From the NCBI GenBank assembly GCA_015680685.1, contig MNCI01001882.1:62001-126000 (forward strand): a DNA stretch of 64,000 nucleotides. Direction: 5' to 3'. Position 1 is the stretch's first letter. Every line of letters begins with the position of its first letter. This document shows positions 37,429 to 64,000 of this stretch, piece by piece. The stretch comes from Gnetum montanum (taxonomy: Eukaryota; Plantae; Gnetophyta). The notes beneath the pieces were generated by a model. It was not told where the DNA came from, ran no database searches, and saw only the letters and a list, made by a program, of their open reading frames with translations. A program made the translations under genes and the position numbers.

Positions 37429-38868
37429 TGTAAGTACATTGACAAAGTAATACATAGTTTAAACTTATATGAAAATCTTCTTAAATAGAAACAAACCTTT
37501 CTTTATATAGTAATCTAGAAATTGTTAGATAGTAATATATAGAATAGAATCCTAGAGGACCAGAGAAAAACAATAAAGTATTAGCCTAGTGGTAAGACTC
37601 TTGATTTGAAATCATTAAGTTATGAGTTTAATTCTAATGAGTAATGATAAGTAATAAACTTCTACTTAAAGTTCTACCAAAGTTTCATATATGAGTATAT
37701 GTTCTAGGGGTGTATATAGTGTCTCAAGAAGTATTAAAATCCAAAACCTTTTCTTAAATAATATTTATGATGAGGACATCACTCTACCTTCTTGATGTAT
37801 TTCATAGCCCTAGTATATTCTATGAGTTATTAAGAGTCTATTTTGTTTAATTCACATGATTTGGATATGTTTTATGGATTTTTCCAAGTTTTGATAGGTA
37901 GGTATAAGCTATTGCAAGTCACAAACAACCATACCTAATTATCACCTAAATTATAAGTCCTAATCCATTCAACTAGAAACAAATAAAGGAAAAAAAATAA
38001 ATTTTTTTGGGGTTAAAATCATTGTGCAAGATCATGGAGGACATAGGAGGCCATAACAACTCATTATAGTTTTATTTGAGTAGTGCCAACTTGCAACCAC
38101 TTTAACAATGTTTTTGGATTTTACTCCAAACAATAGTTTGAGTCATTAAGGGTCGTAATCAATCATAGCTTAGAAAATTGGAAATAGATGCAAGTCATAG
38201 CTAGTGTTAGCTATTCGCAATCTAATGAAAATTTTTAAAATGAAGCATCATGAATAGGAAGTATAATGCTTGGGAAACCAATATAAATATGAAATAAGGG
38301 CTAAATATCAATGCTATTTTTTGAGTCTTAAGCTCTAAGCATTGTATGAGTGTTTTGGGCTCTTCTTGAGCAATTAAGAGAGTGAACAATAGTAATCTTC
38401 TATGGTGAGTTCGTGTGATGTAAAGATTTTTGAGGTACTTGTCTATCCTTGGGATGTTTGTTTTCATTTTCATTTGTAATTTAATTTACTTTAAGTAAGA
38501 ATAAAGATATTTTTTCTTTCTTGTCTAATTATAAATTTTTTTTGAAGTTGTTGAGTTTTCATTTCTTGAGAGAGCTTGAATTATGGAATCCAAGGAAACT
38601 TCTTGTCACCTAAATATTAGACAGTAAGAATTGAAGACAAGTTAACTCAAGCAAAAAAAAATTTCATTATTATAACATAAGGATTCACTCTTCTCCATTG
38701 TATTCGGTATATAAAGCCATTTCTTTATTCAATTAGGGTTTTTTTAAACTCCTTTTGGTTTATTAATTGTATTGGGTATTGAAATTTATTTTTGTTTGAG
38801 ATACTCATTAGTTTTGATTAGCTAGAGTTTCTTTTAATTAGGTGTAACTCAACTAGGATTTTGATACA
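37429..38868 (+). mobile_element. Probable LTR of an old gypsy element inserted in the integrase C-terminus of element A
   Basis: TGTAAG begins exactly where integrase homology stops. TATATAAA at ~38708, ends ...GATACA, and a gag relic follows. Confidence 0.45.
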
Positions 38869-41583: not shown

Positions 41584-44500
41584 ATGAATACCGCCAACAC
41601 CAATGCTTCGACCAAGTCCATTCCGGATGTCATGGACCCCACGACGATGCCAATGCCTATTATGAAACCCATCAGAGCCCATGCTAAGGTTAATCCCTGG
41701 GGGGGACCTCATCGATCTCTTAGGCTACAAGGGAAAAATCTGTCATTTAACGTTATCACGCAGGAATAATATAATTTTATATGCATAAAAATTCAAGCCA
41801 AGCTAGCAGTGGATCAAAATAAAATGGAGGCCAAGAGACAATATGAACTATTTCACAGGGGAGAGCATGAATTCATCCCTTCCCCATATGATGTCATCCC
41901 TCTTCCAGAGCACTACTCTAAGATCGTCTCGCAGCTCCTCTTAGCTAGGAATCAGTCTTTTGAACAGTCTATGGCAAATCCTCAATTGGAGGAGGAGGAT
42001 GACTTTGCAGCTTAGTCTGAACATGAAGATTCATACCATATCCTTAGCCTCCAAACTTACGCTAACAAGTTGTTCCACCCCTTTACAGGGGAGACTATGT
42101 CCCTCCATTCATTTAAAACCACTCAAGCACTTGTGCCCCAATAGGAAGTCTCCACCCTCATTCCCACTCTCCCTACGACTGATAACCAATTCAACATAGC
42201 CATCGCCATTATCCCTCTAGTCACCGCATTACGCCCCCCCCCCCCCTCTTGCAAATACAACCCCAACAACAACGTCCTCAAAATAATGTAGGAGTGACCT
42301 TCCCACCCCGAGTGATCAGGATGCCATATGCGATACCAGCTTCTACATCCGCACACTATATACCATGGATCCAAACTCAAGGAGCTTCCTTCACCACTTC
42401 AACTCAACAAGTTCAGGGTGTTCCTACACAAAACGTGACCAGACAATGAGCTGGGACTGGTACACAAGCACATCAACCGCATAATTACAATGTACCAACT
42501 CCTACAATTCCACCCATAAACATCCCTCAGATACAACAACAATAACAACAACAACAACCCTTTACTTATAGTATGCCACCCTTAGCAGCACCTACCATAA
42601 ATATTTCGCAAGCCTAAGCCCCAATCACTCAGCTCTGCTCTTTCCCGCCCGCCATCCAACAATCTAACTTGTATACTACACCACATAATCAATCTACCAT
42701 CTCACCTAGTGTCCAAGATTGGGTTGATACTAAAAAACTCATGCAAGAGCTAACTGACGAGGTTAAGTGCCTCAAAACCGCCACCGACGAAGAGCTTAAG
42801 ATAGTGGATTTCTATCAAGATGACCCTATCAGCACTTCAGTTCCACCTCTAACATTACCTAAGGGTGTTTCCTTACCTATGTTGACTAAATACAACAGAG
42901 AGATAGATCCCAATGCCCATCTCATAACGTTTAGATTAGAATGCACGTTACTTCAGGCGTGGCCACATGCCATCTTGCGAGTATTCCCCATGTCCCTCAC
43001 AAGGAAGGCGCTTGACTGGTATCGGGCTTTGCCCTGAAACTCCATATATTCTTTGGGAGATCTACTACACCAGTTTGTCACTAGGTTCAAGTATAACTTG
43101 AAGCTTGAAGCAACACTTGACAGCCTGATACAAGTCAAGCAAGCACCACTAGAACCTGTTCAAAAATTTATTCAACGGTGGAGTGCTACCCTCAATGAAC
43201 TACATGAACCAATCCCAGAGACTTATCTCCTCCCTATTCTAAAGGGGGCTGTGAATGATTTCATGAAGTCCAAGCTATACTACCTTAATTCATGCACGCT
43301 CAGTCAAGCATTTGTACAAATAAAGAACATAGAAGAGGTAGCCCAAAACAGCCATGACCTTGCCTATTCGGCCTTCAAAAATCAACACAATAAGAAAGAC
43401 AAAGAAAAGGCTAAGGAAATAATAGCAGCAGTAGCAGAAACATGACAAACGAGTATGGGGCAACAAGGTAAACTGCCTACTTCCCCCACTAACTATGCTA
43501 GACCTCCTCCCGCTACTGCACCCAAACCATCCACATGACAAAATCCTACACTAGGTCATACGAGAAACTTCGAGAGGAGAGACCCCTCTCAATACACACC
43601 ATTGCCCATGAAACCCTTGCAATTATTTGACCAACTCTTGAAGGCTGGGCTAATGAAACATAAATAATTGTCCCTGGTAGCAATCCAAAGACATGATCAA
43701 TTCTATCAGTTGGTTGAGAACCCAAGCTTGGCAATGCCCAACGAGCCTCCAGTTCCAAGAGGGTTTAGAATAGACCGCTTTTGCGATTACCATTAATGCA
43801 ATGGGCATGGCACTGATTATTGCTTCACCCTGAAACAAGATATCCAATAGATGATCGATGGAGGTGAGATTACTTTCAATGAAGCCAACCCAGTCAAGCC
43901 ACAAAACCAGGCTATGGGAATATATAAGGATCCTCTAAATACTAAGGAGGCTCCATATGTAATTAACACCATCTACCTAGACAGCGAACAAGAAACACCT
44001 AGAATTAGCAACATTTACTCAGATAACGAATAGCAAATACCTACAAGACCCTTTGTAGTTCGTATTCCTTCTACTGCACAAACACCCACATCCCAATCAT
44101 CATACTCTCCATGTAATCCGCCCACCCCGCAAAGACCCTATGTCATCCGGATACCCCCCACGGTGGTAGCCTCTACCATACCACCAAAACCATATGTGGT
44201 GCGTATACCTCCCACTGCTATAAACATGCAACCTCCTACCCGACCCGCATCCCATGTAGTCCAAATGCCACCTGTAGTTGCAACTACGATGGAACAACCA
44301 TCAACTAGAACAACTCCGTATGTTGTTAGGATACCCAAACATCCTGATAACCACCAACCTTCCGCCCTTTCAACACAAAATAAACCAACCCCATATGTTG
44401 TTAGGGTGCCTAGGCAGCCTGACATTCAACCACCGTCAACCATCCAATCGCAACCTCAGCCTACTCCATACATCATATGGGTTCCAAAGCAACCGTACAT

Positions 44501-45846
44501 TCAAAAACCAAATGTTCCCCCCACGCCACATGCGGGAACGCCTAGCAGACAGGCTCACACAAGAACGATTGGAGAAAGAACGTCAACAGCTTGCCTTGGG
44601 AACCCCTAAGCCTACTCCAGTGGGTGTAATACCCATGGCATCACTTGATAATGAACCAAACGCTAAGGGAGAACCATCGGGAATGAATGATACATCCAAA
44701 TCAATAATTATGGAAGAAAAAGGCAAACTAGCTACACATGAGATAAAACTGCTAGTCTTGATGGACCAAGTAACCATTAACAAACATACTCCTAACAGTA
44801 AAGATCTAGTAATAGCTCTAACATAGGTCACGTAGGCACTTAAACAGAAAAATACCTCATTAAGCCTATATGACCTGATATTAACTTCTCATGCTCATCG
44901 CGAAGTGCTGGTACTCATGTTAACATTGGTCCCAGTAAGTGAGGACTTACCTCCAAATGAACCTTCAATTCATGCGGTAATGTATTCGCCTCAAGGATCG
45001 ACTTCTAAATCACTACATTTCCACACTGAAAACATCAAAACTGATCAGAGAACCAGAGACGTCACCTACGCACCTATGTTCATAACAATACAAGTAGGTT
45101 AATTCCAAATACATCGGGTGCATGTAGATGATGGAGCCGCCACAAATGTAATACCCTACCTCGTCATCGAACAATTAGGGCTCACGCAACTAATTAAACC
45201 AACTTCCACCACATGCTTAAAATCGTTTAGTGGATCACACGTAGTGGTAAAAGGTACTATAACTTTGGACTTTATAGCAGGGGATCGATTCCCCACATTA
45301 GCTAACTTTGTTGTCATCGACAAAATGTGAGGGTTCAATTTAATATTAGGAAGACCCTAGCTAGCCCAAATCAAAGCAGTCTCTTCCCCTATACACCAAG
45401 AGATCCACCTGCCTTACGAATGTGGTGAAATCATCATACACGGGGAGGCTGCTACACCTACCAGTTCATCGCATACAAATACAGACCAAGGCTCAAAGGT
45501 TAGGTTTGAAAAGCCTAAACAAGATGACACAAAAAGAAAACAAAGTTACACGCAACCAGTAAACAATGATCCATTAGACGTAAACGAAACTTTACCTAAC
45601 ATAGAAACACCCAGACCTAAAACTGTACCTACACTGCCTAACCTAGAAATTACAATAGATATCGAAACTACAGAACATATGGAAACACTAGAAGACACTA
45701 ACATAGAGCATATCCCATCAGACGTCCCTTGGGCTAAATTACCATTCAACGTAATCAGCGAAGGGGACGCTGAGTATAGAATCACACCTATTAATATCAC
45801 TCCTAATGTTAAATTTCGAAAAATCAAAAAATTACTAAACCATTAA
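41584..45846 (+). pseudogene. Element B gag-protease (Tat-type), disrupted
   Basis: Gag: LTKYNREIDPNAHLITF..RVFPMSLTRKALDWY. Knuckle: FCDYH*CNGHGTDYC. Protease: RVHVDDGAATNVIP, FNLILGRP. Terminates with TAA at 45846. Confidence 0.92.
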
Positions 45847-46607: not shown

Positions 46608-49600
46608 CTAAGCATCAAGGTCGGGAGGGGTGTCCCCCTCAGACTCCTTGGCCCCATGGGTCCCTGCTCAACTGGGGCCACCCTCTTGACCATTGCCATC
46701 GCCCTGACCCTACAAAAAGGTAAAAGAAAATGATGAATACAAAAAGAAAAGAGAAGAATCCCAAAAGTTAATAAACAAAATTCACAACTTTAAATTACTT
46801 ACTGAAGAGGATCCTCCTAGACCGAACTCCAACTAATGAAGGATTTATTCTTTGGAAACACTTGCCCAGTCAGTCCCATCAAGGCCTAAATCAACATTGG
46901 TCAAAGCCTTCCCTTTGTCCACTGCAGACCAAGTGGGACATTTTAGAGGAAACTCCCCCACAGAAACCTCCCCAGAAGCCGTGGTGATTACCCTCTTGGG
47001 TGATTCCATCTCCACCATAGTATGCTTGGCAAATGCATCAAATGAGGAGCACAGGCCTAAACACTCAACAAAAATTTCGAGCTAACGCTTCTCTATAGAT
47101 ACCACTTTTAACAACTTTTTATAATGATACTTATGGGTCTTCTCATCTTGACCCCATTTTCATACCTTAGAAGCGAAAGCCTTCCAATCTTGACATTTGA
47201 GGTTCAGTAAATCTATTTGTGCTTTACGCTCTGCTAACTCCCGAGTCAACGATACTTGGCAATTTAACAAATTCCAATATCTATCATAATTAATTTTAGA
47301 AGTTCATCAAGAGCGATCAACTATTAACCTTGCCAAGGCAAACTCATAGCATGATTTGAGATCATCCCACTCTGCTGATAGCTTCAAAATCTCTTTTTCT
47401 CCTACCTGAATCTGCACCCATAGCCTCTTGATGGAACGCCTACATATCCAAAGAGACTTGGCATTCTACACAACGCACTCTACCACTTCATCATAAATTT
47501 GTCAGGGCACTTGCTCAATTTCTAGGGGTAGCGCAGGTAAACTATCAATACCAGTGGCCTTAGCTGAATCCCATTTCAGTTTAGCCCCTATTCATATGAG
47601 GAAAACATACATTAGACATTGGATAGTAGCAACAGATAAAAAAAATCCCAAAGGATACATACCTATTCCAGGGTGAGCTTGCTCAATATGATCAACCACT
47701 TCATCAATGACACCAGTTATAAAATCCATTTTACTTGGCATTTCGATCCAAGTAGAAGGTTCATGTATAGGAGACGGGTTAACTTCGGTGGTCGTTTTTG
47801 TAGAGGCCTTCATCATGGGAACTTCTAAATGAATGTTAGGGACCATCCTAGTCTCAACATTTTTTCCTGGTAGCAGTAAAAGCATGAAATAAAAATTTAG
47901 AATGATGGAAAGCATAATTCCAAAGGCAAATGCCATAATAAGGAGAACATACCGGAATCTCTGACCTCTTTTGGATTTAGAGGATCACCAAGGTCTAGTC
48001 TCCCTCTAAAGAAACCATCGAACATCTCATCAACACCATCCTGATCATCGATGTTACCCTTTTCCGTTGTGTCTCCCTCCTGATCTTCCATTCCTCCCGT
48101 CTCGTCCCTGCCTGCCTCATCCTCCTCGTTTAAGTTCGTTGAGGCCTCTTCCTCCTCGATGATTAGTGCTAATATCTCTTTTCTTACTCTAGAAGTCAAC
48201 TCTAATGGCATTCATAGGTTCAACATCAAGCATGGTATAAACCAACAAAAAATGAAGTAAAAATAATGGTGATGATAGCAAAACAAGGACAAATCAGTAA
48301 ATCAAGATTACCTCGTACAGGCATCTTAAACCGCATACATTTCACCCTTGGTTCATCTATGGTTAGAGCAACCTCTTTAGGATGTTCACGCTTCTGAACT
48401 TTTGCCTTTCCTTTTCTGATTGTTTCCTGGATAACCCAATCAGCTCTCTTAGCAGTGTAGGGCACATTATATGGTTCCAACCCTACGCTATCATGCATGT
48501 GAATTGACTGACCAAATGACCCCTCCGTTGTGATAGAAACTGAATCGTCAATCCCCTCAAGAGCATCTTGAGATTTAGCCACCTCCAATAAGTGGCAAAT
48601 CCACGGGCGAGATAGTTAATGGCGATCCCTTAACATGTACTTGTTATCCACGTGAACAACCAGAAATTCAGCCAGCTGGTGCAAGTAACCAGGAAAGAAT
48701 GCAAAAGTGAAATGAGATTGCACCTCAATGTTCGAACGCAACCTCACTATCTCCCCATGGAAACCTGAAAGCAAAAACTGGGCCTAGTTATAACGTATCT
48801 CAGTCTCTAAAATAGTGTGCATGATGTGCACAGGTTCTACCCCAAAACTTTTTACTTGAGACAGAGACTTGGGAAACACTTGCGCCCTGAATAAGGGATA
48901 TAACTCATTGACTTCTTCCCCTTTGAGCCCTTAGGGACACCCAACCAGTTCTCCAATTCACAAACCACATGGATTTCCCTCTATGTCCTATCCAAAATCA
49001 CTTTAATTCCAGCTGCTGGTACACCAAAGAAGTCCAAAAAGAACTCCTCTGATAGATGGAAAACCACTTTGACACCCTTGATGTGAGTGCTATAGTAGGC
49101 GATAGACTAGTCGAAAGAATCAATGATTCCAATCATCTCCATCACATAAACATTAGGGCTTAGGGCAATAAACAAATCCATGAGGCCCACATCACTCAAA
49201 CGACTGATGATATGTGGCGATGCCTTTGTATGTAACCATCGCTGTGCGTCATTGACTTCCCCAAATTTCATGGACAGAGTGCTCTCAGTCCACCTAGTTG
49301 TGATAGTGGCTCCACTAGATGGGGCGTCCACTACATGCACAAGATAATCCCAGCAAGTCAACATAAATAATGATGTAGCAAAACAAGCAAACTGAGGTGT
49401 CAAAAATACCATTACTTATCGTCAATCGATGTATTCAGATCGCTAGGAGCCAAATCGGCATCACATGGGAAAACTGGCCCAATATGAGACCAATCCCCAT
49501 GCAACCACCCCCTAGCCTCGCATTGTGCAAGTGCCCTCAAGTACCATTTATGGAAATGAACAATGTCATGCTTAGTCTAGGCCAACATGGCACCACAAAG

Positions 49601-50692
49601 AGTGGGGCCTTCCATGAAGGCCTCCAAGGCGGTACGAGCCAAAGCGAGCCCATCATCGCCTACGCACACTCCTTCTTTATCGAACTGAGGCTTGCAAAGA
49701 GATGGTGATCAATATGTAAACCACTACTAAGCAGCAAGGCAAAAAAAATAGTAAATTGAACAACCTTACCTTCCTACTCGGTACACTATTCCATGAGGGT
49801 TTTGGAACAAAGTATGTGCACGAGTAGCTAGGAACAAGGTGTTATTGATCTGGTAAGACCCATGTGACAATAAGTCCCACACACGTGATAATGGATGGCT
49901 AGATCTGGGTCCCCCAGAGGGACCGTCCTCAATCGTAAGTGGTCCCTCATCAATGTCCACCACGAAAGCCATAACGCCATTTGAAGACCCTGGTAACATG
50001 ATCTCGAGCACACTCAATGCTAATTGTTCACTTAAATACGACCATATTACCATGTTGAATTTGTCTAAGATGAAGGCAAGGAATTCACAAGCCCCTTCTC
50101 TAAACCATACCCCATTACGATAAATTGTCATATTAGGAATTGGCTCATCAGAATCAATCAGACCAAACCATGTCAGGACTCCAATGAGCTCGACCACCAA
50201 GAGGAAAGGTTTGGCATCCCTGCATGTATTCAAAAAATAGGGTGAATAAGCCATGTAAAAATAAAGTTCTACACTAGGGAGCCAACACTTAGAAAAAAAA
50301 TTTCAGCATCAAACTTAGCATGCATGCTACACACTGGAAAACTCAGCGTGCACCCTGCACCCTGGCAAACTCAGCGTGCACACTGCACGCTGGAAAGCGC
50401 AGCGTGTAGATCCTGCATGTTGCACGCTAGATCACGATCACAATAACCATACACGCTAAGTAGAGAAACCTTACGCTATGGAAATATCAACGCTATGCAA
50501 TGAGAAAATCGATAGGAACAATGGGCAAAAACACAAATTTTGATGAAGGGTCAGAGCCTACCTGCACATCGACCCTGACCATGAGGGAATCCGGGATCTA
50601 GGCAGACAATGGAGCATTGCTTCACTCTCTTAGGCAAAGATCAAGCTAGGATCCTTCCTCCCCTAGCCTTCTACCTACTTACCCTTGCTCAT
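46608..50692 (-). pseudogene. Element B antisense ~7-exon accessory gene (NIF/FCP1-like + PMD/Transposase_32-like + coiled coil)
   Basis: Exons: 50692-50562, 50219-49770, ~49690-49420, ~49368-48312, ~48220-47953, 47866-46803, 46709-46608. Donors GTAGGC, GTAAGG, GTAATC, GTATGT, GTAAGT. HAD-like LLVVELIGVL...WFREGACEFLAFILDKFNMVIWS. Confidence 0.85.
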
Positions 50693-51481: not shown

Positions 51482-51526
51482 ATGGATTACAAGCATCTAT
51501 TCACACCATTGACCATCAATGGACCA
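51482..51526 (+). pseudogene. First 15 codons of element B pol ORF (MDYKHLFTPLTINGP), interrupted by insertion of element C
   Basis: Homologous to the element C pol start MDANLFTPLALTGP. LTR C begins immediately afterwards. Confidence 0.75.
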
Positions 51527-53129
51527 TGCGGGCAGATCACAAGAGAAATCAACATAAATTCTATCAACTTAGATGAAACACCATGGAAATTGTGGATCGT
51601 CCTAAGGTGAAGATTCACAATTCAGGCAAAAGCTCGTAGCAAAAATCTAGAAGGCAGAACTACTCAAAAAGGCGTGCAACATCAAGTCTTCAAATTTCTT
51701 AAAAAATTCTAACTTTGTTGCTCCTTATGCTACATTATGCAATGTAGCTTCATGTCACTTAGTGTAATTCTATGTGATGTAATGAAGGTAGCTTACTAGA
51801 GCAATGAAGTCAGCAAAAATTTGGAACTTCTGCAAATATGACAAGTTTAAGGCCTAAGCAGTAGTCTATGACTTGTCGCATATTCCACCAACTCTTTTGA
51901 TTAGGACTGTATTCACGCTCCATTACGCAAAGTAGCATAATGAGCCTTGAAGAAATCAAAGTGAACATCAAAAGAAGCATGGTAGATTGGTCGCTTTACA
52001 CTTTATTATGCTACGCAACGTAAGTAAGCGTAACACGCTGAAAAGTTGACCATTTTACGCTCTATTACGCTTTGCGGTGTAAATAAGCACAAAAAATGAC
52101 TTGAGTTAACCACTTTTATGCTCTATTATGCTTTGTAGCATAAATAAGTGTAACACATGTGGAATTCATCACATTACGCTCTGCTACGCTACGTGGCGTA
52201 AATGAGCGTAATGCAGTATAAAGTCAATTAACGTAGTATTAGACATGCACTTGTTACCCATTTGCGGAAATATGCTCATCAGTGTATCGTAGCATAATCA
52301 TGAGGCGGTTTCAGAAAGAGTGGTTTACAGTGCACCTCGCCCCCAAGACGTAATGTGGCATGACCAGCTTTAACATAAAAATTGTCAAGTCAATGGTGTT
52401 TTGAAAGTTCGAGACACGTGTCATCAAGACCGTGCCTTCCCATATGATGCTGAACTTACAAATACCCCAGTTGACGAAGAAAAAGGAAAGGAGAAAGGGG
52501 GGAGGTATTTTCTTCTTTTGAAGGACATAAGGCATTGTTTGAGCATTGGCAACAGGAGCGATCAATCTTCTTGGCGAAAACATTATCCTCTTCATTGGCG
52601 ATCATTAGCATCTTTAAGCAAAGATTACCGAGGGCAAAAGGAGTAGATCAAAGATCAAGAGATCATTTGGTATGATTGGCAAGGTTTATTGATCAGAAAT
52701 AGTTGATCGATAGACATCCAGGCTTGACCTTCTTTGCATTCCACTTTTGGCTTACGAGGTAGATCAAACTTCATTCTGTTCTCCCTTTTAAACAGTTTTC
52801 TTGTTGTTTCATGTATGCTTCGCAAAAAGATAAGTGAAGTCTGCCATTGGAACATTGTATGCAATATATTCAGCTTTCGAGTCAAATCATAGATCTTGGA
52901 ATTACGCATCTTTCCTAAATTTGATCTTCCTTGTCGCATTGACGTTATCGTTATTTCAAGTTCTTTACATTGTTGTCTACTCCTTCTACGATTCACCGAA
53001 TTAATTCATTTCATGAAATATATATATCAAATATATACTATCATGATATTTGATAATTTACTGATTAAGTAAGTCCCTGTCTAATCGAACAAGACCATTC
53101 AAGGCACCTCGGATCTGTTTTCTCCAGCA
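51527..53129 (+). mobile_element. 5' LTR of element C (nested in B; left flank GACCA is the expected TSD)
   Basis: TGCGGGCAGATC starts exactly where B pol homology breaks. It ends ...GATCTGTTTTCTCCAGCA (or CCCTCGCA at 53140), and gag starts ~330 bp later. Confidence 0.75.
51905..52215. repeat. Tandem ~60-bp palindromic units in LTR C
   Basis: About 5 units of TTACGCTC.ATTACGC...GCGTAAAT.AGCGTAA. The best unit (~52172-52213) has 10-bp perfect arms CATTACGCTC/GAGCGTAATG. Confidence 0.8.
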
Positions 53130-53463
53130 TGGCCCTCGCATAGATCCGTGGTTAGGACTGTGTACACAGATCTTCGCTCGGTATTTCCAGTGACTGACAT
53201 TTTCCATCATTACAATTTTCTGGCGTTACAAGGAGGGCTTGAACCTCCGATCCATATTTTATGGGTAACCCTATAAGCAATCCATACCCACGTTCACATA
53301 ACATAAACGTAATACCTCTAGGGAAGTTTACAAAATCGTGTGGTGTAGATTGGTCACAGTAACGATTCCTTTGGAATCCTACAAGGTAGAAAGCCCAATC
53401 GTGGTTCCGTTTTGCCATCACCTTTTAAATCTTTTCATTTATTGTTATTGATCTATCTGAGAG

Positions 53464-56400
53464 ATGGATTCTACGCATACAACCACTGCTGCTATGATCA
53501 CCACTGACTTGGGTGCCACAACCATAAATCCCATCACCGTTCCTAAATCAACTTTCGGTGCAACAGGACCTCAGGGACCATCGCATTGTTCATTGAGATT
53601 ACAAGGTAGGGATCCTTCATTCACTGTCTTGACTCCTGAAGAGTATAATTTCATTTGGGTCAAGATCTAGGCAAAGCTTGCCCTTAGCTGAGCTGAGATG
53701 GAAGAAAAATGAAATTACGAGCTGATCTACAAAGGGGGTCAAGCCTTCACCCCTACTACATATGACATCATCCCCCTTACCAATCATTATCATGAACTCC
53801 TATCCCAACTGATTATGGCTAAGAATTCAATTACACAGTCTACTCTAGAGCCTCAAAACAAGGAGGAGGAGGAAGATGAATTCGTAGCTCAGTCTGAACA
53901 CATGGATTCATACCATACCCTCAACCCCCATACATATGTGAATCCCCTATTTAATCCTCTCACCGAAGAAGCTGCCCATCTCAACCCAATCATGACCACC
54001 CAAACACATATTCCCATCGTCTGGTAGGCCACCACGAAATCCTCGGTCTTGTAGGTACAAATTCCACCTTAAAATAACATGGGAGTAACCCCCTCGCCAC
54101 ATGTAATCAGGATTCCGTCGATGATACCTGCATCTACTGCCCCCCATTTCATTTCCCAAGCGTAGGTCCATACCACACCTATAACCCACCCGGTGCAAAT
54201 CCTGGTGAAAACCTTATTGTCGTAGCCCATTGCAAGGCAACAGATTGCAACCACCATTCAATCGCAGTGACCTGTTCAACAACCTACGGCTGGTTAGTGG
54301 ATCACACCTATTGCACAACACAATTAATCTGTGTTCTATGGTGTGCAACCCTTGGCTGCATCTACCACACATGTCCCGTAGGTAACTGCAGAACATCCTT
54401 ACACCTTCCATCCTACACATCCAGCGACAGCCAATTTTTTTGCACAGCCTATCGGGTGGTGGATTTCACAGGCAACTCCGTCCGTGGGGACAGTCCCCAT
54501 CACGCCGTTTGTCAGCCACGCTATTGCTTCCTTTCCATTACCTGGTACTACTCTTCCAGCCCAACCCCCTGCTCCTCCAGTGCCAACTTCGTCATCAACA
54601 AGTCTGGATCAATATTTTTTGCTTATTCAGACCCTCACCGAGGAATTTAAGAGCCTTAAAGCTGCTGGCTCTAATACAATACAAGTCATGGATTTCTACC
54701 ATGATGACCCCATCAGCCTAGTAGTCCCCATGTTGTTGTTGCCTCTAGGGATGTCTTTGCCCCATTTTACTAAATACAATGAGGAAGGTGATCCTAATGC
54801 TCATCTCGTTACCTTTAGGTCTGAATCCTTGCTACTACAACAATGGCCCCATACGATTATTCGTGTCTTCGCAATTTCTCTGGTAGGTAAGGCCTTGGCC
54901 TGGTATCGAGCACTCCCTCGCTCTTCCATCTCAACCTTGGAAGAGCTTCTAACACAATTTGTGACTCACTTTAAATACAATTTAAAGCTAGAAGTCACAT
55001 TAGATCAACTTATGGAAGTGAAACAAGACCTGCTCGAGCTAGTCCAAAAGTTTATATAGCGATGGAGTGCTACTCTGAATGAAATCTATGAGCCTATCAT
55101 GAAAGCCCATCTGTTGGCTATTTTCAAAGGAGAAGTTAACGACTTCATCAAGTCTAAACTATACTACCTTGCCCCTCGCTCCCTGAGTCAAGCCTTCACG
55201 CAAACTAACAGCATCCAATATACTGTGGAGGCTAGCAAAGACCCAGTGTATGTGGCCTATAAGAAAGCCAATAGTAAGGGTAAAGACAAAGGTAAAAAAA
55301 CAATGATGACAGTAGCTGTGCTGGCCGAGGGTGCCAAAAACAAGAATAACAAGAAGGCACCCACAGCGCCTACCGAGACCACGGCTAGTGCAAGCAGCAC
55401 CGGCCAAGAAGCACTTGCCCCTGAAAAGCCCTCACAGTCAAAACCAAACTTCGAGCGTAAAGATCATTCAAAATATACAGCCCTACCTATAAAGCATTTG
55501 GAACTGTTGAAACAATTATTAGGAGTAGGATATATTCAAAACAAAAAAATATCTGAAGAAGCTCTGGAGCGTCACAGGCGTCATTGTGAATTGTTGAAGA
55601 ACCCTTCTTTAGCTCTACCCAACGAACCGCCAATCCCTAAGTCTTTCAAGCTGGACCATTTTTGTGACTACCACCAGTTGTACGGTCATGACACCAATTA
55701 CTGCTAGGCGTTGAAGGATGATATTCAACACATGATTGACAATGGTTATTTGACATTAGACAATAGTAGTCCAACACGTCCCGAAAACTAGGTGATGCAT
55801 GTGTACAAAGACCCGTTAAATGTAAATAATGCAACATACACCATCAACATGGTAAGTACGGACAGAGAGGGGAAAGTATCACCTAAGAAACCCTTTGTGT
55901 TACATGTACCCATCAGTTCACCCTAGGAGCCGAGTTCTTCACCAGTAGTTGGCAGCGCCTCGAGGCCACCCTTTGTTATTCGGACGCCCTCTCAAACTAT
56001 AACTCAGTCTCACATTAACAATAAAGTCGTGGCCATGCCCACACCTACTCCTAAGGTGCCTTTTATCCTTAGGGCACAAAAACCACCAGCTGCCCCTTTT
56101 ACACAAGGGTGAGTCTCTAACCAAAACCATCAACCTCCATCCAACAAAAAAAGGGAAGGAGATGCGCCAATTAACGCAACCAAAGACCTCTCTACGCTAG
56201 GGTTTGCTAAGCCTAGGCCCCTAGCTTCTGTACCTTCACCTGCACCTTCTGGGCAAGGCAAAGGTACAGAAACATAGCCACCTCCCCTCAGTAGAAAGAA
56301 ATACAACCCTCCAACCAACTTTATTCTGCCTCGGGAAATTCATCTCTTAGGGCGAATGGAAGAAGAAAGAGGAGACAAGCAACCCAACTGAGAGTGGGAC

Positions 56401-57293
56401 CTCCTCAATGCATTTACACAAGTCAAGGAGGCTCTAAAATAGAAGAACACAACATTAAGCCTCTATGACTTGCTTATGATGTCTCAAAAGCACCATGAGG
56501 CTATGGTCCATATGCTGACATCCATACCTGTGGATGAAAGCTTACCAGTGAAAGAGGAAGCGATACATGCTGTCATGTATCCCCCCACCGCTGAGAGAGC
56601 TAAACCTACCCCATTGACCTTTTATGATGAATCCATCAAAGATGATCCTGAGAAAGTTTGAGTGATCACAGAACCCATGTTCATCACCATCCAGGTTGGT
56701 CAACATTGGATCCGAAGGGTGCACATTGACGATGGTGTAGCTACGAATGTCATCCCTTATCCTATAGTGGATAAGTTGGGCTTGGTCGACCAAATCAATC
56801 CTATGATAACATCATGCCTAAAGTTGTTCAACGATGCACGAGTTCAAGTCAAAGGGACAGTACATATCGATTTTGTGGCAGGAGACCAATTCCCAATAGA
56901 CGCCACATTTATCATCATCGAGGAGATGCCCAGCTTCAACTTGATTCTAGGGAGGTCCTGGCTAGCCCAACTGAGGGTAGTTTCATCACTGATACACCAA
57001 GAGATACACCTACCTTATAAAGGGGGAGAGGTAGTGATACATGGTGATGAAATAACTCCTAGAACCATCAATAACATCAAGGAAGAATGGGGTTTGGAAA
57101 TCGAAATGCCTGAAAATCAAACCCATGTCCAAATTCTCGAACAAGTTGAAATGACTAATGACAGCCTAGCCTAGGCCGACCTACCATTTCAAGGAGAGGA
57201 AGATGATGTGAAGGAGTCAGGTCATAGATCTCGTCACCCTTATGCACCACTTAACGTAAAAGCCATCAAAAAAAATTACGGGCTAGCGATTGA
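53464..57293 (+). pseudogene. Element C gag-protease (Tat-type), disrupted
   Basis: FTKYNEEGDPNAHLVTF..RVFAISLVGKALAWY, FCDYHQLYGHDTNYC, RVHIDDGVATNVIP, FNLILGRSWL. Collinear with B along its length, including the tail. Confidence 0.93.
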
Positions 57294-57899
57294 CCTGCGT
57301 GATATTTACGTGCATCTTTACACTTTCACTAGTTTTGCCATTTACGCTTATCATTTTTGACTGTCAGTTTTGTTTAGTATACATATATTTATGTCCTCTA
57401 TCAATTACGCCATTTATGTTTCCTAGTTTACACCATTTATTCTTCTTAACTCCTATTAGTTACATTAATACAATTACGCAAATATTTACACTTTTATCAA
57501 TTGCACTCTCTGACATACGTAAATGGCTCGCAACGACCTAAAACTAGTAAAGGCCTGCAACGGCCTAAAACTAGCAAAGGCCTAAAATGGCCCTAAACTA
57601 AAATATCTAATTTCTATCTTTACGCAAAAACCACTTAATGGCCCGGGACAGCCTCAAACTAGCAAATTCATCTATATTTTACACAAACACTATGTAACGG
57701 CCCGCAATGGCCTTAAACTAGCAACTCCATTCAACAGTCACAATAACGCCACCTACCCAAAACCCTCAATAATTCTATTTACGCTTTGTATAAATAAAAA
57801 CATAAAATTAAAAACCATAGAGAAAATTTCATGATTAATCATGCCAAAATTCATATTTTCTTTGTTCCATCTCATAAATAAAATCGTGCGTAATCATAA

Positions 57900-60800
57900 T
57901 TACGCATCCCCTCTAGCACCACTGTCTCCCGTATCGCTTAACTCTACTTCCAAGCCTAGCAAATCTTCTTCATATAGGCCATCGCTTTTAGGAAGTATTC
58001 CCTCATGAGGACCATCATCTTCATAGGGTTCTTCCACTAAAAATTTCTCCCCAAGGTGACGATCTGCGTCATTACACTCTCCTCCCTGAACGTACGCCTC
58101 ATCTTGTCCACCTTCTTCGTTCGTTTCTTGTAACTACATACAACAAGTATATCAGCAAAAGCCATGATAGGAAAATTCAGAAAATTCAAATTCAACAACA
58201 CTAAAACTTACTCGCGATGGCCTTGCATCAGTAGCAAAGGGGAGTTGATCTAAGCTGACCCACAGACGTTGCATAATCTCGTCTTTGGTCAATTTAGACC
58301 AAACCCCATTCCCCAAATTAGTTCTAGCCTTAACCTTTCCCTTCTCCACACTAGTCCACCAAGGTGGTTTGGGGAAGAAGGTAGGGACTGTGGTCTCTCC
58401 CCCAGGAAGAGTAATTTCTCTTTTCGGGGACGCGCTCATCGTCACCTGCTCCTGGAACTTCTCGAAGGCCGTAGACACACCAATGACATTGAGGAACAAT
58501 CGCAAGGATTGAGCTTCCATGGCAGAATTTTGATAATGCTAACGATAAGTGATACTTTCTTACTTATACAAATGCTTATGATCTTTCTACGTCTGTCCCA
58601 ACTCTTGGAAACTTGCACAAAAGTCCTTCTAGTATTAATTCTTCTGGGCCAAGAGCTCCATCTGCATCCTTTGCTCGACTAATTCATAACTGGTTTGTAT
58701 GTTGTTTCTGACTACAGTCCAGTAGCAAGCGTAGTCAATGACAGCTATACACCAGTCCTCTTCACCCGTTCGTCGAGCTTGCAGGAATTCACATCGTGAC
58801 CTTAAGTCTCTGACCTCTCTGGTTAGAGACATCCTTTCCTTCTCTGATCTCTGCAACTTCTTCTAGAGGTCTTCATTGACATTCTGACTTTCCCACAGGG
58901 AGTGGGTCCAACGTAATGCACATTTACGCATTTCCTCATAAATGTTGTGTGGCACGACCGTTGCTTCCGATGAGGGTTCGATGGTGACCAGGTCAATGGG
59001 CTCCAGAGAGTCCCATCGAAGGCAAGCTCCTAATGACAAATATTAGATCAAATGTAATTAAGCATTGTAACCTTATAAAAAAATAAGCATGCGATAGCTG
59101 CAACATACCACCCCCAGGATCGACGCGTTGTAAGTGCTCGATCATATCACCGATGATGCCTTCCATAAAGGAGAATTTATCAGGGAATTTTCCCCACACT
59201 TTGCTTACAATGGTGGCCGGGGAATCACCTCATTCATCTATGGTATAATTAATTCAAAAAATTTGGCTAATAAAAAAATCTCTTAAAAATATTAATAGAC
59301 TGATTACCTCTTCCTGTCCCAGTGGGAAGTGCGTCAACGTTCTCTGCCTCCACTCTCTCTTCACACACAAGGGTCTGTGCATCACTCACTCTAATAACTG
59401 GGGCCTCCTCTTCCAAACCTGGGGCCCCTTCCCCATGTTGTAACACCATAACCCCTGTCTCAGGGGTCAACTGCTTTGTAGGTCTCCCCATTCCTGCTAT
59501 ATAACACACTTAAATAATTCAAAACACCTTGAATAAGTTACGTAATACAACAATTACCATAACTTTTACTTTATCCTCTTACTTTCCAGGTGGAATTTTA
59601 CTCCACTGACACTTGACTTGTACAGTTCTGTCGGTGCCACCTGTCGGCTCCATAGGCGCCTCGGTTAGACGAGGCCTTTTACGTTGAACTGAAGCATCCA
59701 CTATTTCTGCTGCTAGGCACTTCCCCCATGACACATCACTGGTGTAAGAGGGAAGCACCCCACCTACACTATTAGAGCCTCGCATTCGAGGTGCCACCAC
59801 ATTCCTAGTTGTTATAGAAAATGACTTCCCAATTCCCTCTAGAGGATCTTGTGACTGGGTAGTGCCGAAGAGGTGGGAGATCCAGGGTTTGGATAACTGG
59901 TCTCAATCCTGTTACACCAAGACCCCATTCCTCTGGACCACCAGAAATTTGGAAAAACAATAGAGGAAAGCTATGAAAAAGGTGAAGTGTACATTGAAAC
60001 GAGACTTAAACTTTTGGCAGAGCTTGATCATTTTAGTGCATAACCCTTCGGCGAAATAGCTCACCCAATCAAATTGGGTCCATTCCTTTATCACCTCTTG
60101 CATGATATGGGCCTATTGTATGGTGAAGAACTTCCCCTACGAGAGTGTTCTGGGGAAGGCCCGGGCTTGGAAGAGGGGATAAATGGTCTTGGCAACCTCC
60201 AAATCGATCTTTTCACAAGGAATCTCCTTCGTGTCCTTCTTAGTCCCCAGCCACTCCTCCGACTCTTCCTGAAATTTGAGGCTTCTCCTTGACTTTTCTT
60301 CTATGGGAAGACCATTGGAAGGGACACTGAAAAGATCAGTAAATAGTTGAGCATCAATGTCAAAATGTACATGCACGTTACGCACACGCGTGCAAAAATG
60401 TTCAGTCCCCTTGCTGAAGGAGTTAACCAGGGTTAGCATTTCACTTGCGGGGACATCGAGAGTTACAACTAGAAACAAATGCATTAGCCTCGCCTCCCGT
60501 AGCTTAGTAACCAACATAGCTGGGGCCACCACGTGGCCGAGCCAGCGTTGTGCTTCCTTTATGTCACCATAACGGAAGAGGAGGGTGTTCGCCTCACGAC
60601 TGGAAATCATGATGGTAACTTCCCGAGATTCCCTAACTAATAACACAAGTCAAGATAGCAAAGACAATGTTATACAACATTTCAAACAATAAGATCCTGT
60701 AACTAATTGTAACGATGAAACCTTACTAGGTCTAAATGGCAAAGGAAATGGAGGAAGCTTCCTTTGCACGTTCGTGAGGGTGAGGGGCAGGTTCAAAGTC

Positions 60801-61952
60801 CATTCCTCATGTAACCATCTGAGGCTCTAACAATTCTTGAAAGAATCAGAGTAACGGGTGGGATACTTAAGAATATCAAAGGCCATCTACCCCATGACAT
60901 CGGCGCGTACATTGCTAGTGGACTTAAACTCATTTATCACCCTTTTGGTCAGGGATAATGTATCATTATTGTCCAATAACCCATTTTCATTGATAAAGAA
61001 CCTGTATCATATAATGCTTTACTATCTTACACTGTACAAGTTCAAACATTAGAAAACATATTAACATCACCGCAAGTAAAATGACTTAACTGCCTGAGTA
61101 ATACACCATGCCCGGTGGATTATGAAAGTAGGTTGAGACATGACGGGCTACGAACAAAGTGTTATAGGCATGATAACAACTAAATTTGGGCATCTCCCAA
61201 ATCCAACTTAAATGCCTCAATCCTTTGGCGCTAAGTTCGCGATCTTGAGGTCGACCAGTGTCAATAGCTCCGTCTATTAGGAAAGCCAAAACGCCCTGTG
61301 TAGAACTGACTAATAAATTTTCCAAAATGGCTATAGCCACATCACTCAGCAAATGTGACCAAATGATGATGTTATAGTTATGCAACAAAAACTGCAAGAA
61401 CTCCTGCGCACCCTTCCGGAACCATGTTGCTTTCTCTTGTAGGCGAGTTTGAGGGGGAGGAGCATTGGCTGCGGGAGGGTTTATACAACATAAAACCCTG
61501 ACTATGTCCAAAACAATTAGGATAGATTTCACCATTATGCTGTATAGAACATAAACATGTTACCATTAGATAAAATTCTAAATCTATATTTCATTGCATG
61601 CTTAGGAAAACTACAAATAATTCTTTAGCGATGCAGCCAAAATCACTTAAATCCTTGCAACAGTGCAAGGTTTGTCTTAGACAATGGCGATAGACGCAAT
61701 ACCACTATCTAAACCCTTGTTTTAATATAAGGTATATATCCCAAAACTCTAGTTTACGTAGATAACTCAAAAGAATAAACAAAAGAAAAAATATATCACC
61801 GAAAGCAATGCGAATAAGTGAGAGATGGCCTACTGATTCAGGGGAGTAACATCTCGTACTTCGACCAAGGCCTATGAAGCACGCTGTAGATTCTCCTACA
61901 CTTCATCGATTTTCACCAATTTGGCATTCTTTCCTCTCACCTTCGGCACCAT
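57900..61952 (-). pseudogene. Element C antisense 7-exon accessory gene (NIF/FCP1-like + PMD/Transposase_32-like + coiled coil + acidic tail), ~1,100 aa
   Basis: Exons: 61952-61834, 61539-61090, 61001-60727, 60636-59583, 59496-59308, 59237-58212, 58133-57900. GT..AG introns of ~70-90 bp (intron 1 ~295 bp; donor 2 mutated to TT). ILIVLDIVRVL...WFRKGAQEFLQFLLHNYNIIIWSH...LSWIW...NTLFV. Confidence 0.88.
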
Positions 61953-62424
61953 AGTTACAGTTCTGTAAACCTTCACAAATAACGAACTGCTATCTTTTGC
62001 TCTTTCTCTCTCTCTGCGACAGCTAAATTCGAATTCGCAATAGCCAACAACCTGTTTTCAATATGAACCGCTTACTTATAATATGCAAGAATAACCGACT
62101 TGATGCCCGATTAAAGTGGGACTTGCCTAAATGCTGGTGTTAGCATGAGATGGAACCCGAAGATCAAGGCATTAATGCAGTAGATATCGTATACATTACA
62201 GTCTGAAACGACCTTAAACTACTATACCTTATCACTTCGTAATCGAGTCACATTAATTACAGGCTGTTTACGATATTCAAAATTCAGTTAGCTCTTCACG
62301 CTCGACAATGTCATACCATACCTTTTCAAACTGTACCAAGCATCATATGCTAATACTTGCAGCATTTAACTTAGCATTTTTCTAATTGCTTTCATATTTG
62401 GCAATTTTGTAGGACAGTTGGCAA

Positions 62425-64000
62425 ATGGACGCAAATTTATTTACACCCCTAGCCTTAACAGGCCCACATGAGGGAATCGTTAGACAATTTGATCTCACAC
62501 TAGTAGAAACTAACCTTTCCCTCAATGATGCAACCATAGCCACATCAGAAACGTCTCTAGACTAGCCAGAACAATAGACGTGCACACTAGATTTGGAGGC
62601 TGGAGATGTAACCGAAGACCCCCTCAACGAGGTCCCTATGGTTACGCATAAAGGTGAGAACAAAACTCTTAAGGTTAGTTCTTTACTAGACCAAAAGGCA
62701 CATGACAATATAAAACAGGTGCTCTAGAATAACATCACAGTATTCGCATGGTCATATGAAGATATTCTGGGACTAGATCCAAGGCTAATACAACATAACA
62801 TAATTCTAGACCCGCATATTAAAGCGATTAGATAAAAAGTATGGAAAATTAAGCCAAAAATCATGCTAGCAGTACATGATGAGATCACTAAATTGTACCA
62901 AGCTGGTTTCATCCGCATGATCGATTACTCAGACTAGGTATCTAACATTGTAGTTGTTCCTAAGAAGACCGAAGGGATATGCATTTGCATAGACTTACAG
63001 GACTTGAACAAATCCACAATCAAGGACAACTTCCTGCTACCAAGTATTGACCAACTAGTAGATACAACTGTTGGGCATGTGCTTTTATCGTTCATGGATG
63101 GTTTTTCAAGCTATAATCAGATTTGCATCAACCCATAACACCAGCTGACCACAACATTCATGACACCCTGGGGGACCTTTTGTTACACTATTATGCCTTT
63201 TGGTTCAAAAAATTCCAGAGCTACGTATCAACGAGCTATGATGTACATCTTTAGTGATTATCTCCTAGGAAGACTGAATGATTATGTTGACAATATAGTT
63301 GTTAAGTCTATAAGGTCAGAAGATCATTTAGAGGACCTAGAGTTAGTCCTTAAAAGATGCTCTAAATACGACTTCCAGTTCAACCCAAAGAAGTGCGTAT
63401 TCGGAGTCAAAACTGGATGCATGCTAGGGTTTTTGGTGTTGGAAACTAGCATACGAGTAGACCCTAACAAGGTCAAGGCCATCATTGAGTTGACCACCCC
63501 TACAAATCTCAAGCAATTACGTGGGTTGCAAGGGCAGTTACAGTTTATCAGGCAGTTCATCTCGAAATTAACAGATAAATTACACCCTATGCAGCATCTG
63601 GTTAAGAAGGGGGTTAATTTTGAATGGACAGACGATTGTCAGCGTACATTTGACAGCTTGAAACAAGAACTTCAACGCTTGCCAACAGTATTCCCGCCAC
63701 AAAGGGATCAGCCGTTCTACATTTACCTCTTAACCTTAGACGTATCCCTAGCTACATTACTCTGTCAAAAGAAATGTGATAGGTCAGAAGTACCCATCTA
63801 CTACTTGAGTCATGCTCTATGTGCGTATGAAACGAGATATAATGAAGTAGAGCATAATTGTTTAGCATTAGTGTTTGCTCTCAAAAAGTGCAGACACTAT
63901 CTCTTCCGTAGCAAAGTTAATATAATTTGCAAGAATAACATCCTGAGAGCTATTACACACAACCTATATGAAAGTAGTAGGATAGCTCATTGGAAAGCTA
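62425..64000 (+). pseudogene. Element C pol ORF: RT and RNase H (continues beyond window), disrupted
   Basis: ATG 62425 is in frame with VFAWSYEDILGLDP, KDNFLLP, FMDGFSSYNQI, MPFGSKN, DYVDNI, KCVFGV and PIYYLS. Closely similar to element A pol. Confidence 0.95.

What the first reader, a model, noticed from the sequence alone, without database searches (positions are those of the whole stretch)
57900..61952. Conserved exon-intron structure in a gene carried by a retroelement
Seen: all three copies have a short, mostly basic first exon (128, 131, 119 nt, all 3n+2) ending in the same GTAGGC donor. Each has an acceptor at the homologous point before the NIF-like exon with matching phase. Exon 2 is exactly 450 nt in both B and C, exon-2 donors sit at the same position, and the B and C last exons both end ...DA*. 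One junction in C (exon 4/5) is out of phase, presumably from a frameshift. Inference: the antisense orientation protects the introns from removal in the genomic RNA, so the element can carry a fully spliced gene through retrotransposition.
Basis: partly seen in the sequence, partly recalled or inferred. Interest (0 to 1): 0.8.

Follow-up and report, generated by a model that had tools for sequence, protein, structure and literature searches.

The report
Retrotransposon carrying a backward seven-intron gene
Three decayed, distantly related plant retrotransposons in this window each carry a backward-facing gene split by up to seven intron-like segments, placed between the protease and reverse-transcriptase genes; facing backward would shield the introns during copying through RNA, so these elements likely spread a normally spliced accessory gene predicted to encode a dead phosphatase-like adaptor, although no spliced RNA was seen.

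Summary
Mostly real, and larger than reported. Three diverged Tat-type Ty3/gypsy copies (A, B, C; C appears inserted in B) carry an antisense gene of 8 exons (B, C; about 1,070-1,080 codons) or 7 (A, truncated) in a 5-5.6 kb gap between gag-protease and RT. Introns 1, 2, 3, 6, 7 lie at aligned positions; 16 of 19 donors are GT, 17 of 20 acceptors in-phase AG; donors beat 5000 of 5000 null draws; intron cores are unalignable while exons show coding-type conservation; C's gene decayed no faster than gag-pol. Corrections: exon 1 is basic only at its start and has 2-4 stops; C's exon-2 donor is TT and A's AT (11 of 11 RNA reads of relatives show GT at C's site). Exon 2 is a NIF/FCP1 domain lacking the catalytic aspartates. 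Six RNA runs gave no junction joints, only unspliced boundary reads from diverged copies. Antisense protection of introns is established logic; splicing and function are inferred. Known kind (Tat antisense accessory ORF, Ogre-like split), new variant in position, introns and cargo.

The parts
51591..53214 (+). Inferred 5' LTR of copy C (TG...CA); begins inside the start of B's pol
   Evidence: no second LTR in the window, so the bounds are inferred
53221..53250 (+). Primer-binding-site-like sequence of C
   Evidence: aligns with B's at 40952; tRNA-Asn likeness is recalled, Rfam did not assign it
53464..57360 (+). C gag-protease, broken by stops and frameshifts
   Evidence: Pfam Retrotrans_gag E=3.4e-4, RVP_2 E=0.049; 52-53% identity to B
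57523..57720 (+). Five copies of a 24-nt motif ending GGCCTTAAACTA-like, after the protease and 3' of the antisense gene
57900..58133 (-). C exon 8, acidic tail, ends DA-stop
58212..59029 (-). C exon 7, helical/coiled-coil-like
   Evidence: 33% to B over 247 aa, 30% to A over 191 aa; DMPK_coil E=0.098
59109..59237 (-). C exon 6
   Evidence: similar to B (0 of 2000 shuffles) and A (11 of 2000); donor aligned in all three
59308..59496 (-). C exon 5, not alignable across copies
59583..60636 (-). C exon 4, plant-transposon-accessory-like domain; 3' end at 59583 (out of phase) or 59602/59611 (in phase)
   Evidence: 29-39% to A and B pieces; Atlas lead DUF1985 at 0.91; no Pfam hit
60727..61001 (-). 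C exon 3
   Evidence: similar to B, 0 of 2000 shuffles
61090..61539 (-). C exon 2, NIF/FCP1-like domain without catalytic aspartates; donor reads TT in this copy
   Evidence: PF03031 24.8 bits over cut-off 21.8
61834..61952 (-). C exon 1, basic N-terminus, GTAGGC donor
62198..62221 (+). Single copy of the same 24-nt motif before pol
62375..62412 (+). Sense-strand 3'-splice-site-like sequence (CTAAT, pyrimidine tract, TAG) 12 nt before the pol ATG
   Evidence: relatives' reads keep a CTAAT although the 87 nt before it are replaced (table 5c)
62425..64000 (+). C pol from its own ATG: RT and RNase H, running off the window
   Evidence: Pfam RVT_1, RT_RNaseH_2
41584..45846 (+). B gag-protease, preceded by a PBS-like site at 40952
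46608..50692 (-). B antisense gene, 8 exons: 50692-50562, 50219-49770, 49691-49420, 49330-48312, 48201-47953, 47866-47663, 47587-46803, 46709-46608
51482..51590 (+). Start of B pol (own ATG, AG 10 nt upstream), cut by copy C
   Evidence: similar to C pol start, 0 of 2000 shuffles, best of 18 frame pairs
26520..31310 (-). A antisense gene, 7 exons left (31310-31183, 29696-29254, from 29176, 28936-27880, 27780-27585, 27497-27360, about 27300-26520); older, frameshifted, 3' end lost
   Evidence: CpG observed/expected 0.0-0.3 against 0.3-0.95 in B and C
34100..37460 (+). A pol: RT, RNase H, additional RNase H, integrase; CAG acceptor-like site at 34090
   Evidence: (RVT_3 E=4.7e-8; Integrase_H2C2 E=1.1e-8)

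Best explanation
These are three decayed members of a Tat-type Ty3/gypsy lineage whose layout is gag-protease, then an eight-exon gene on the opposite strand, then RT-RNaseH-aRH-integrase; the backward gene was likely spliced and translated while the elements were active, and its introns would survive copying because the plus-strand genomic RNA shows them only as reverse complements. Shown: position, exon-intron anatomy, minus-strand splice signals, coding-type conservation, a NIF/FCP1 domain without its catalytic aspartates. Inferred: a minus-strand promoter between exon 1 and pol makes an mRNA that host spliceosomes process into a protein of about 1,075 residues (basic start, pseudo-phosphatase, transposon-accessory-like domain, coiled coil, acidic tail); the unspliced plus-strand RNA is packaged and reverse-transcribed with the cassette intact; pol is most likely made from its own ATG behind a sense-strand acceptor. 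Function, my pick at about 0.35: a nuclear adaptor that binds a phosphorylated host partner (the family's usual substrate is the RNA polymerase II tail, recalled) without dephosphorylating it, to favour the element's transcription or blunt its silencing.
For: Introns 1, 2, 3, 6 and 7 fall at the same or neighbouring alignment columns in the copies that retain them (A's intron-3 donor is lost in a deletion). 16 of 19 donors GT, 17 of 20 acceptors in-phase AG; exceptions are AT, AT, TT, AA and two A acceptors with AG 1-2 nt off, about what 15-25% decay of stop-prone codons predicts. Donor consensus 0 of 5000 null draws. Short introns GC 0.25-0.31, T 0.45-0.51 on the minus strand; exons GC 0.41-0.47. 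Intron cores of B and C no more alike than shuffles in 6 of 6 (140-879 of 1000), while exons 2, 4, 7 show identity by codon position 0.51/0.69/0.30, 0.48/0.66/0.31, 0.49/0.60/0.35, the same shape as gag 0.63/0.76/0.32. All 14 B and C introns give a stop or frameshift if retained. Stops per stop-prone codon in C: 15 of 94 in the gene, 15 of 100 in gag-pro-pol, Fisher p=1.0; B 17 of 69 against 13 of 77, p=0.31. Relatives' RNA reads show GT at C's intron-2 donor (11 of 11) and a different but T-rich intron ending in CAG at the intron-3 acceptor (11 reads). Mechanism precedent: PMC6775231. NIF assignment.
Against: No junction joint at any intron in six RNA runs of two studies, and the reads that cross the intron-2 donor and intron-3 acceptor are unspliced; if the adaptor-like loose ends mark strand as I recall, those reads are minus-strand RNA. 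All three copies are broken (C 15 stops, B 17 plus frameshifts). Introns 4 and 5 lie in unalignable sequence; exon 1 similarity holds only for C-A; exons 5 and 8 are not above shuffles. No protein relative of exon 2 at E up to 1e-10 or of exon 4; the exon-4 domain and the function are leads only. No whole genome was held, so only three copies were aligned.
Confidence: 0.75

Rival explanations
1. Same gene, different route to pol: the whole 5-5.6 kb gap is an enlarged Ogre-type sense intron, spliced from part of the plus-strand RNA to fuse gag-protease to RT, with the antisense gene nested inside it; only unspliced RNA would be packaged. Compatible with the main reading; it differs on how pol is made.
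For: [quoted passage not shown] Acceptor-like sites precede pol in A (34090), C (62412), B (51471), phase 0 in A and C.
Against: No aligned sense donor near the protease end in B and C; each acceptor is followed by an ATG within 9-12 nt and B's is in another phase; no joint from gag-protease to pol in four runs; Ogre's gap averages 274 bp.
Confidence: 0.3
2. The gene is not cargo of the retroelement: it is a host gene or an intron-bearing DNA transposon that inserted into, or was duplicated with, these elements at DNA level.
For: Seven introns and a NIF domain related to host FCP1-type HAD proteins look like a cellular gene.
Against: Same slot and strand in three families only 52-62% identical in gag and RT protein; same decay rate as gag-pol; no terminal inverted repeat around the cassette; B and C have unlike LTR regions and C sits inside B's pol start; RNA reads come from many copies under 90% identity.
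Confidence: 0.07
3. The cassette is a passive fossil: a host gene fragment captured once with its introns and carried without being expressed.
For: No spliced reads; catalytic residues gone; all copies broken.
Against: First and second codon positions conserved while third positions and intron cores are saturated; splice ends kept; C reads through eight exons in one frame apart from single-base stops.
Confidence: 0.06
4. The minus-strand RNA matters mainly as a regulator (double-stranded RNA or transcriptional interference) and the protein is secondary.
For: Such a dual role is proposed for antisense ORFs (PMC7264820); reads of one mate orientation dominate across gag as well as the gene in X11.
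Against: Does not explain 1,000 conserved codons and seven kept introns; the strand bias is element-wide and may reflect read-through from host loci.
Confidence: 0.07

Closest known systems
Ogre elements (Tat; TatIV/V of Ustyantsev 2015; PMC6317226, PMC4408406)
   Same: Gag-protease separated from RT-RH-aRH-INT; acceptor-like site before RT; accessory ORF with a coiled coil (PMD-CC in lineages IV and V).
   Different: Gap averages 274 bp in Ogre and is 5,064 nt (C) and 5,635 nt (B) here, holding a whole gene; Ogre's intron is on the sense strand; its extra ORFs lie upstream of gag or 3' of pol.
Retand/TatVI antisense ORFs (Grande gene23, RIRE2, TRP28 ORFs; PMC11963269, PMC7264820)
   Same: Antisense accessory gene kept in all copies, own promoter inferred, short tandem motifs nearby, basic start suggesting nuclear import.
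   Different: Those lie between pol and the 3' LTR and are described as plain ORFs ('intron' occurs 0 times in PMC11963269); no TRP28 hit here; here seven introns and a NIF domain.
TatIII antisense PMD eORF of gymnosperms (PMC4408406)
   Same: Antisense accessory ORF in a Tat element.
   Different: At the 3' end, aRH after integrase; PMD not detected here.
FCP1/NIF (PF03031) HAD phosphatases, e.g. plant FCP1-domain proteins and UBLCP1
   Same: Exon 2 passes the Pfam cut-off; 26-31% identity to the four phmmer hits; weak match to UBLCP1 (3shq, E=0.56).
   Different: DxDx(T/V) reads DIVRV, ELIGV, ELVGI and the motif-IV aspartate pair is replaced in all three copies.
MAIL3 and MAIN/MAIL1-PP7L module (PMC7156037)
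   Same: A plant-mobile-type domain paired with a phosphatase-family domain, acting on transcription and TE silencing; an analogy only.
   Different: Host genes, PPP-family not HAD-family domain; PMD membership of exon 4 is unproven.
Orchid Gypsy elements with captured AlkB demethylase (PMC9289625)
   Same: Tat-type element that fixed a host-derived enzyme domain.
   Different: Active enzyme; in the passages read no multi-intron antisense gene between protease and RT.
Reverse-oriented beta-globin lentiviral vectors (PMC6775231)
   Same: Same principle: reverse orientation keeps an intron through the RNA stage.
   Different: Engineered, one gene, not natural cargo.

Membership tests
Ty3/gypsy, Tat clade | Order RT - RNase H - integrase | tested here: met
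   copy A
Ty3/gypsy, Tat clade | Additional RNase H (aRH) | tested here: met
   A 35735-36200, RVT_3 E=4.7e-8, between RH and integrase; C's lies beyond the window
Ty3/gypsy, Tat clade | RT groups with reference Tat elements in a tree | not tested
   no named reference set; best database hits 46-48% identical
Ty3/gypsy, Tat clade | Paired LTRs, target-site duplication, non-Met PBS | tested here: inconclusive
   one inferred LTR each for B and C; shared PBS-like site; tRNA type recalled, not assigned
Ogre | Gag-protease ORF separate from RT-RH-aRH-INT ORF | tested here: met
Ogre | Short (about 274 bp) non-coding gap | tested here: not met
   5,064 and 5,635 nt with a gene inside
Ogre | Gap spliced to fuse gag-pro with pol | tested here: inconclusive
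   acceptor-like sites present, no aligned donor, no joint
Ogre | Extra ORF with PMD upstream of gag or 3' of pol | tested here: inconclusive
   none of 100 codons or more between PBS and gag in B or C; 3' regions not in the window for B and C
Retand | Antisense ORF between pol and 3' LTR | tested here: not met
   gene lies between protease and RT
Retand | TRP28 (PF04195) domain | tested here: inconclusive
   no hit for C exons 3, 4, 7 or B exon 7 at E up to 1; copies are decayed
FCP1/NIF HAD phosphatase | NIF domain | tested here: met
   C 24.8 bits over 21.8, B 17.3-17.8 under it; Atlas 29 of 30 hits NIF
FCP1/NIF HAD phosphatase | Catalytic DxDx(T/V) and motif-IV aspartates (motifs recalled; UBLCP1 alignment) | tested here: not met
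   3 of 3 copies lack the second Asp and the motif-IV pair
FCP1/NIF HAD phosphatase | HAD fold | tested here: inconclusive
   model pLDDT 50.5; best Z 5.6 to a P-type ATPase
PMD / DUF1985-type transposon accessory domain | Profile or fold match of exon 4 | tested here: inconclusive
   Atlas 5 of 30 hits DUF1985 at 0.91; no Pfam hit; model pLDDT 35, not searched

The most novel reading that the evidence does not exclude
A Tat lineage runs two intron-using transcription units on opposite strands: a seven-intron gene captured from host DNA sits backward in a 5-kb gap that the sense strand bypasses to reach a separately started pol, and its product is a dead CTD-phosphatase-fold decoy that docks on phosphorylated RNA polymerase II to keep the element transcribed against silencing.
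Probability: 0.2. Interest if true: 0.85.

Novelty: new variant of a known kind. Interest (0 to 1): 0.66.

Why it matters
Reviews state that plant LTR retrotransposons generally lack introns, Ogre and EVADE being sense-strand exceptions (PMC12786077), and that the origin and role of antisense accessory ORFs are unknown, with a call to look for antisense spliced transcripts (PMC7264820). A seven-intron gene kept through enough retrotransposition to saturate third codon positions shows that such elements can carry genomic, intron-bearing genes, points to DNA-level or antisense capture as an origin of accessory ORFs, and means ORF-length screens (250 codons in PMC6317226) would split or miss them. 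A recognisable pseudo-phosphatase domain gives a testable handle on function.

Tried and rejected
No whole genome held. Word-based homolog search with exon 2 for longer proteins: 0 of 363 candidates; with the exon-4 alignment: 0 of 2894 at E up to 1. phmmer on representatives: 4 hits, none at 1e-10; the 1021-aa hit is a sunflower FCP1-domain protein alike only in the NIF part, not a spliced family member. Metagenome scans: exon 2, 0 of 152 stretches; RT, 16 loci, none with the cassette. RNA lays: no joint at any antisense intron or from protease to pol. Structure models too weak: exon 2 pLDDT 50.5, top Z 5.6; exon 4 pLDDT 35, no fold search. Rfam: 0 matches at gathering level; PBS not assigned. 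No terminal inverted repeats round the cassette. Sense donor after the protease: none aligned between B and C. A second Atlas look at exon 4 was not obtained, so that domain rests on one lead. The exon-4 3' pairwise rows (E4b) were out of frame and are dropped. First exon coordinates had three off-by-one errors, corrected. Literature: ten searches listed no paper on a multi-intron antisense gene between protease and RT, and none of the 15 rows shown holds 'NLI interacting factor'. PMC2596294 was not held; Steinbauerova 2011 and Zhao 2011 (brtn) were not seen and could hold a precedent for introns in antisense ORFs; the supplements held for PMC6317226 amount to only 17,418 characters (0 hits for NIF/HAD terms), so its full eORF domain table was likely not seen.
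Full report
Setting. The window is repeat-rich plant-type DNA. Translated self-comparison shows three related blocks. Copy C has gag-protease on the plus strand (53464-57360), a minus-strand gene (61952-57900) and pol from 62425 off the window end. Copy B has gag-protease (41584-45846), the same minus-strand gene (50692-46608) and only the first ~36 codons of pol (51482-51590, similar to C's pol start in 0 of 2000 shuffles); there C's inferred LTR begins, so C most likely inserted into B. Copy A keeps the minus-strand gene (31310-26520) and a whole pol (34100-37460) in the order RT, RNase H, additional RNase H, integrase, the Tat 'retroviral' order; its own gag is gone. The three are different families: gag and protease 53% identical (C-B), RT 62% and RNase H 59% (C-A), third codon positions at 0.32-0.43. 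RT-RNaseH has no database relative above 48% over its length.

The observation. The exon-1 lengths, phases, GTAGGC donors, the acceptors before exon 2, the DA-stop ends and the three quoted junctions check out. Three points need correction. Exon 1 is basic only in its first dozen codons and has 2-4 stops. The 450-nt exon 2 of C ends at a TT, and A's at an AT; only B has GT. The exon 4/5 phase clash in C disappears with GT sites at 59601 or 59610.

Full anatomy. B and C have eight exons; read through with X at breaks they give 1070 and 1083 residues, 29-30% identical among the three copies. Introns 1, 2, 3, 6 and 7 fall at the same or neighbouring alignment columns; introns 4 and 5 lie in unalignable sequence and are matched by order only; A's intron-3 donor is lost in a deletion and its intron 7 with the 3' end. 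Of 19 assignable donors 16 are GT; of 20 acceptors 17 are AG in phase (the script's count of 18 included an A site one base off). All 16 GT donors have A at +3 and 14 have G at +5, against 21% and 20% of 778 minus-strand GT sites; 0 of 5000 null draws reach the mean score. The short introns are 60-110 nt, GC 0.25-0.31 and T-rich on the minus strand. All 14 introns of B and C break the frame if retained.

Selection. Intron cores of B and C are no more alike than shuffles (6 of 6), whereas exons 2, 4 and 7 keep first and second codon positions (0.48-0.51, 0.60-0.69) with third positions at 0.30-0.35, as gag does. Stops per stop-prone codon in C are 15 of 94 in the gene and 15 of 100 in gag-pro-pol (p=1.0); in B 17 of 69 and 13 of 77 (p=0.31). 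So the gene was most likely intact when each copy inserted, and its splice ends were kept over many rounds of copying. Exons 5 and 8, and exon 1 for pairs with B, are not above shuffles.

RNA. Six raw-read runs from two studies were laid at 80% likeness (2 to 26 in 100 of each run read): 1329, 309, 480 and 142 reads on 53300-64000; 206, 14, 82 and 50 on 58850-61950; most under 90% identity, so from other copies. No joint at any intron was listed (threshold 3 reads, 2 starts). At 61089, 8 of 8 (7 starts), 1 of 1 and 2 of 2 reads carry the base that makes the donor GT. At 60638, 11 reads run on into a different T-rich intron ending in CAG. These support conserved splice sites in the family but are themselves unspliced. 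An 18-letter loose end seen in both orientations looks like a template-switch adaptor (recalled); if so, first-mate-plus reads are minus-strand RNA, and these unspliced reads are minus-strand. That bias covers gag as well (17.4 to 0 and 31 to 1.6 in X11), so it is not specific to the gene and may be nuclear read-through. Of 41 listed differences, 39 lie in exons: 21 at third, 12 at second, 6 at first positions; 18 synonymous; these are the best-supported rows only (40 of 247, plus one).

The protein. Exon 2 is a NIF/FCP1 domain: Pfam 24.8 bits over a cut-off of 21.8, four phmmer hits all NIF, 29 of 30 Atlas hits NIF, weak match to UBLCP1. The first motif reads DIVRV, ELIGV and ELVGI, and the aspartate pair aligned to UBLCP1's is replaced in all three, so it is predicted to be catalytically dead, and was so before the copies decayed. 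Exon 4 resembles unnamed land-plant proteins, with DUF1985 as a lead; Pfam, homolog search and folding did not confirm it. Exon 7 is helical with a weak coiled-coil hit; exon 8 is acidic.

How it works. The plus-strand genomic RNA carries the introns as reverse complements, which the spliceosome does not use; the same principle keeps intron 2 in reverse-oriented globin vectors (PMC6775231, passages). A minus-strand transcript from the region before exon 1 would be spliced normally. Pol has its own ATG 9-12 nt behind an acceptor-like site in all three copies, and relatives' reads keep a CTAAT there although 87 nt upstream are replaced; no aligned donor was found after the protease, so a separately started pol mRNA is my first choice and an enlarged Ogre-type intron the second. 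For function I favour a nuclear adaptor acting on transcription or silencing (about 0.35), by analogy with PMD-coiled-coil ORFs of Tat elements (PMC4408406, passages) and the PMD-phosphatase module of MAIL3 and MAIN/MAIL1-PP7L (PMC7156037, passages); nothing here tests it.

Comparison. Antisense accessory ORFs are known in Retand, RIRE2, Grande and TatIII, between pol and the 3' LTR (PMC7264820, parts 1-2 of 3 read; PMC11963269, passages). Ogre splits gag-protease from pol by a gap of 274 bp on average that is a sense intron (PMC6317226, passages). The RT-RH-aRH-INT order also occurs in ferns, hornworts and lycophytes (PMC13468544, abstract, outline and passages; 'antisense', 'eORF', 'intron' 0 times). 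A 2025 review says plant LTR elements generally lack introns (PMC12786077, passages). PMC9289625, PMC8365987 and PMC11728184 were seen in passages only. Ten searches listed no description of this layout; key subscription papers and full supplements were not seen. It works like a Tat antisense accessory gene in an Ogre-like split element, but fails the position test for Retand and the gap test for Ogre. An earlier, unreviewed note from another piece of this genome reports the same 5-6 kb gap with a backward gene in two families; I treat it as a lead, not support.

Verdict. Real feature; observation partly confirmed with corrections; interpretation partly supported, splicing inferred and not seen. 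New variant of a known kind; interest 0.66.

Noticed in passing
window 26560-21411, minus strand: A second, gag-protease-only element (Retrotrans_gag E=5.3e-7; Met-type PBS-like site near 26460, recalled; no RT seen) abuts the cut 3' end of A's antisense gene on the same strand, one base out of frame with exon 7, with almost no 5' LTR; likely a deletion chimera. Its LTR-like end (21096-21779) matches 4031-4882 in reverse.
   Followed up: partly
window 33712-33858, 45861-46111, 51322-51375, 57523-57720, 62198-62221, plus strand: A 12-nt motif GGCCTTAAACTA recurs in clusters on both sides of the antisense cassette in all three families although the surrounding spacer is unalignable; role unknown.
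   Followed up: partly
window 62434 (minus) and about 62200 (plus): In run X11, 29 and 20 reads carry adaptor-like loose ends in opposite orientations here, possible 5' ends of overlapping minus- and plus-strand RNAs between exon 1 and pol; number of independent molecules unknown.
   Followed up: no
window 51580-51600: C appears to have inserted about 36 codons into B's pol; the rest of B would lie beyond the right end of the window.
   Followed up: partly
window 58971-58983: Relatives' reads show a one-base insertion and a one-base deletion 12 nt apart within exon 7, a local compensated frameshift relative to C.
   Followed up: no
window 29709-30169, 31786-32891, 50311-50885, 51724-52297: Family-specific tandem repeats in A's intron 1 and spacer, in B's intron 1 and spacer, and in C's inferred LTR.
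   Followed up: no
window 14430-18440, plus strand: A decayed non-LTR (LINE-type) RT region, RVT_1 E=1.8e-10 at 16892-17317.
   Followed up: no
window 88-471 (minus) and 3390-3851 (plus): Short ORFs, one His/Ser-rich and weakly like 26193-26326, one coiled-coil-like; probably remnants of other elements.
   Followed up: no
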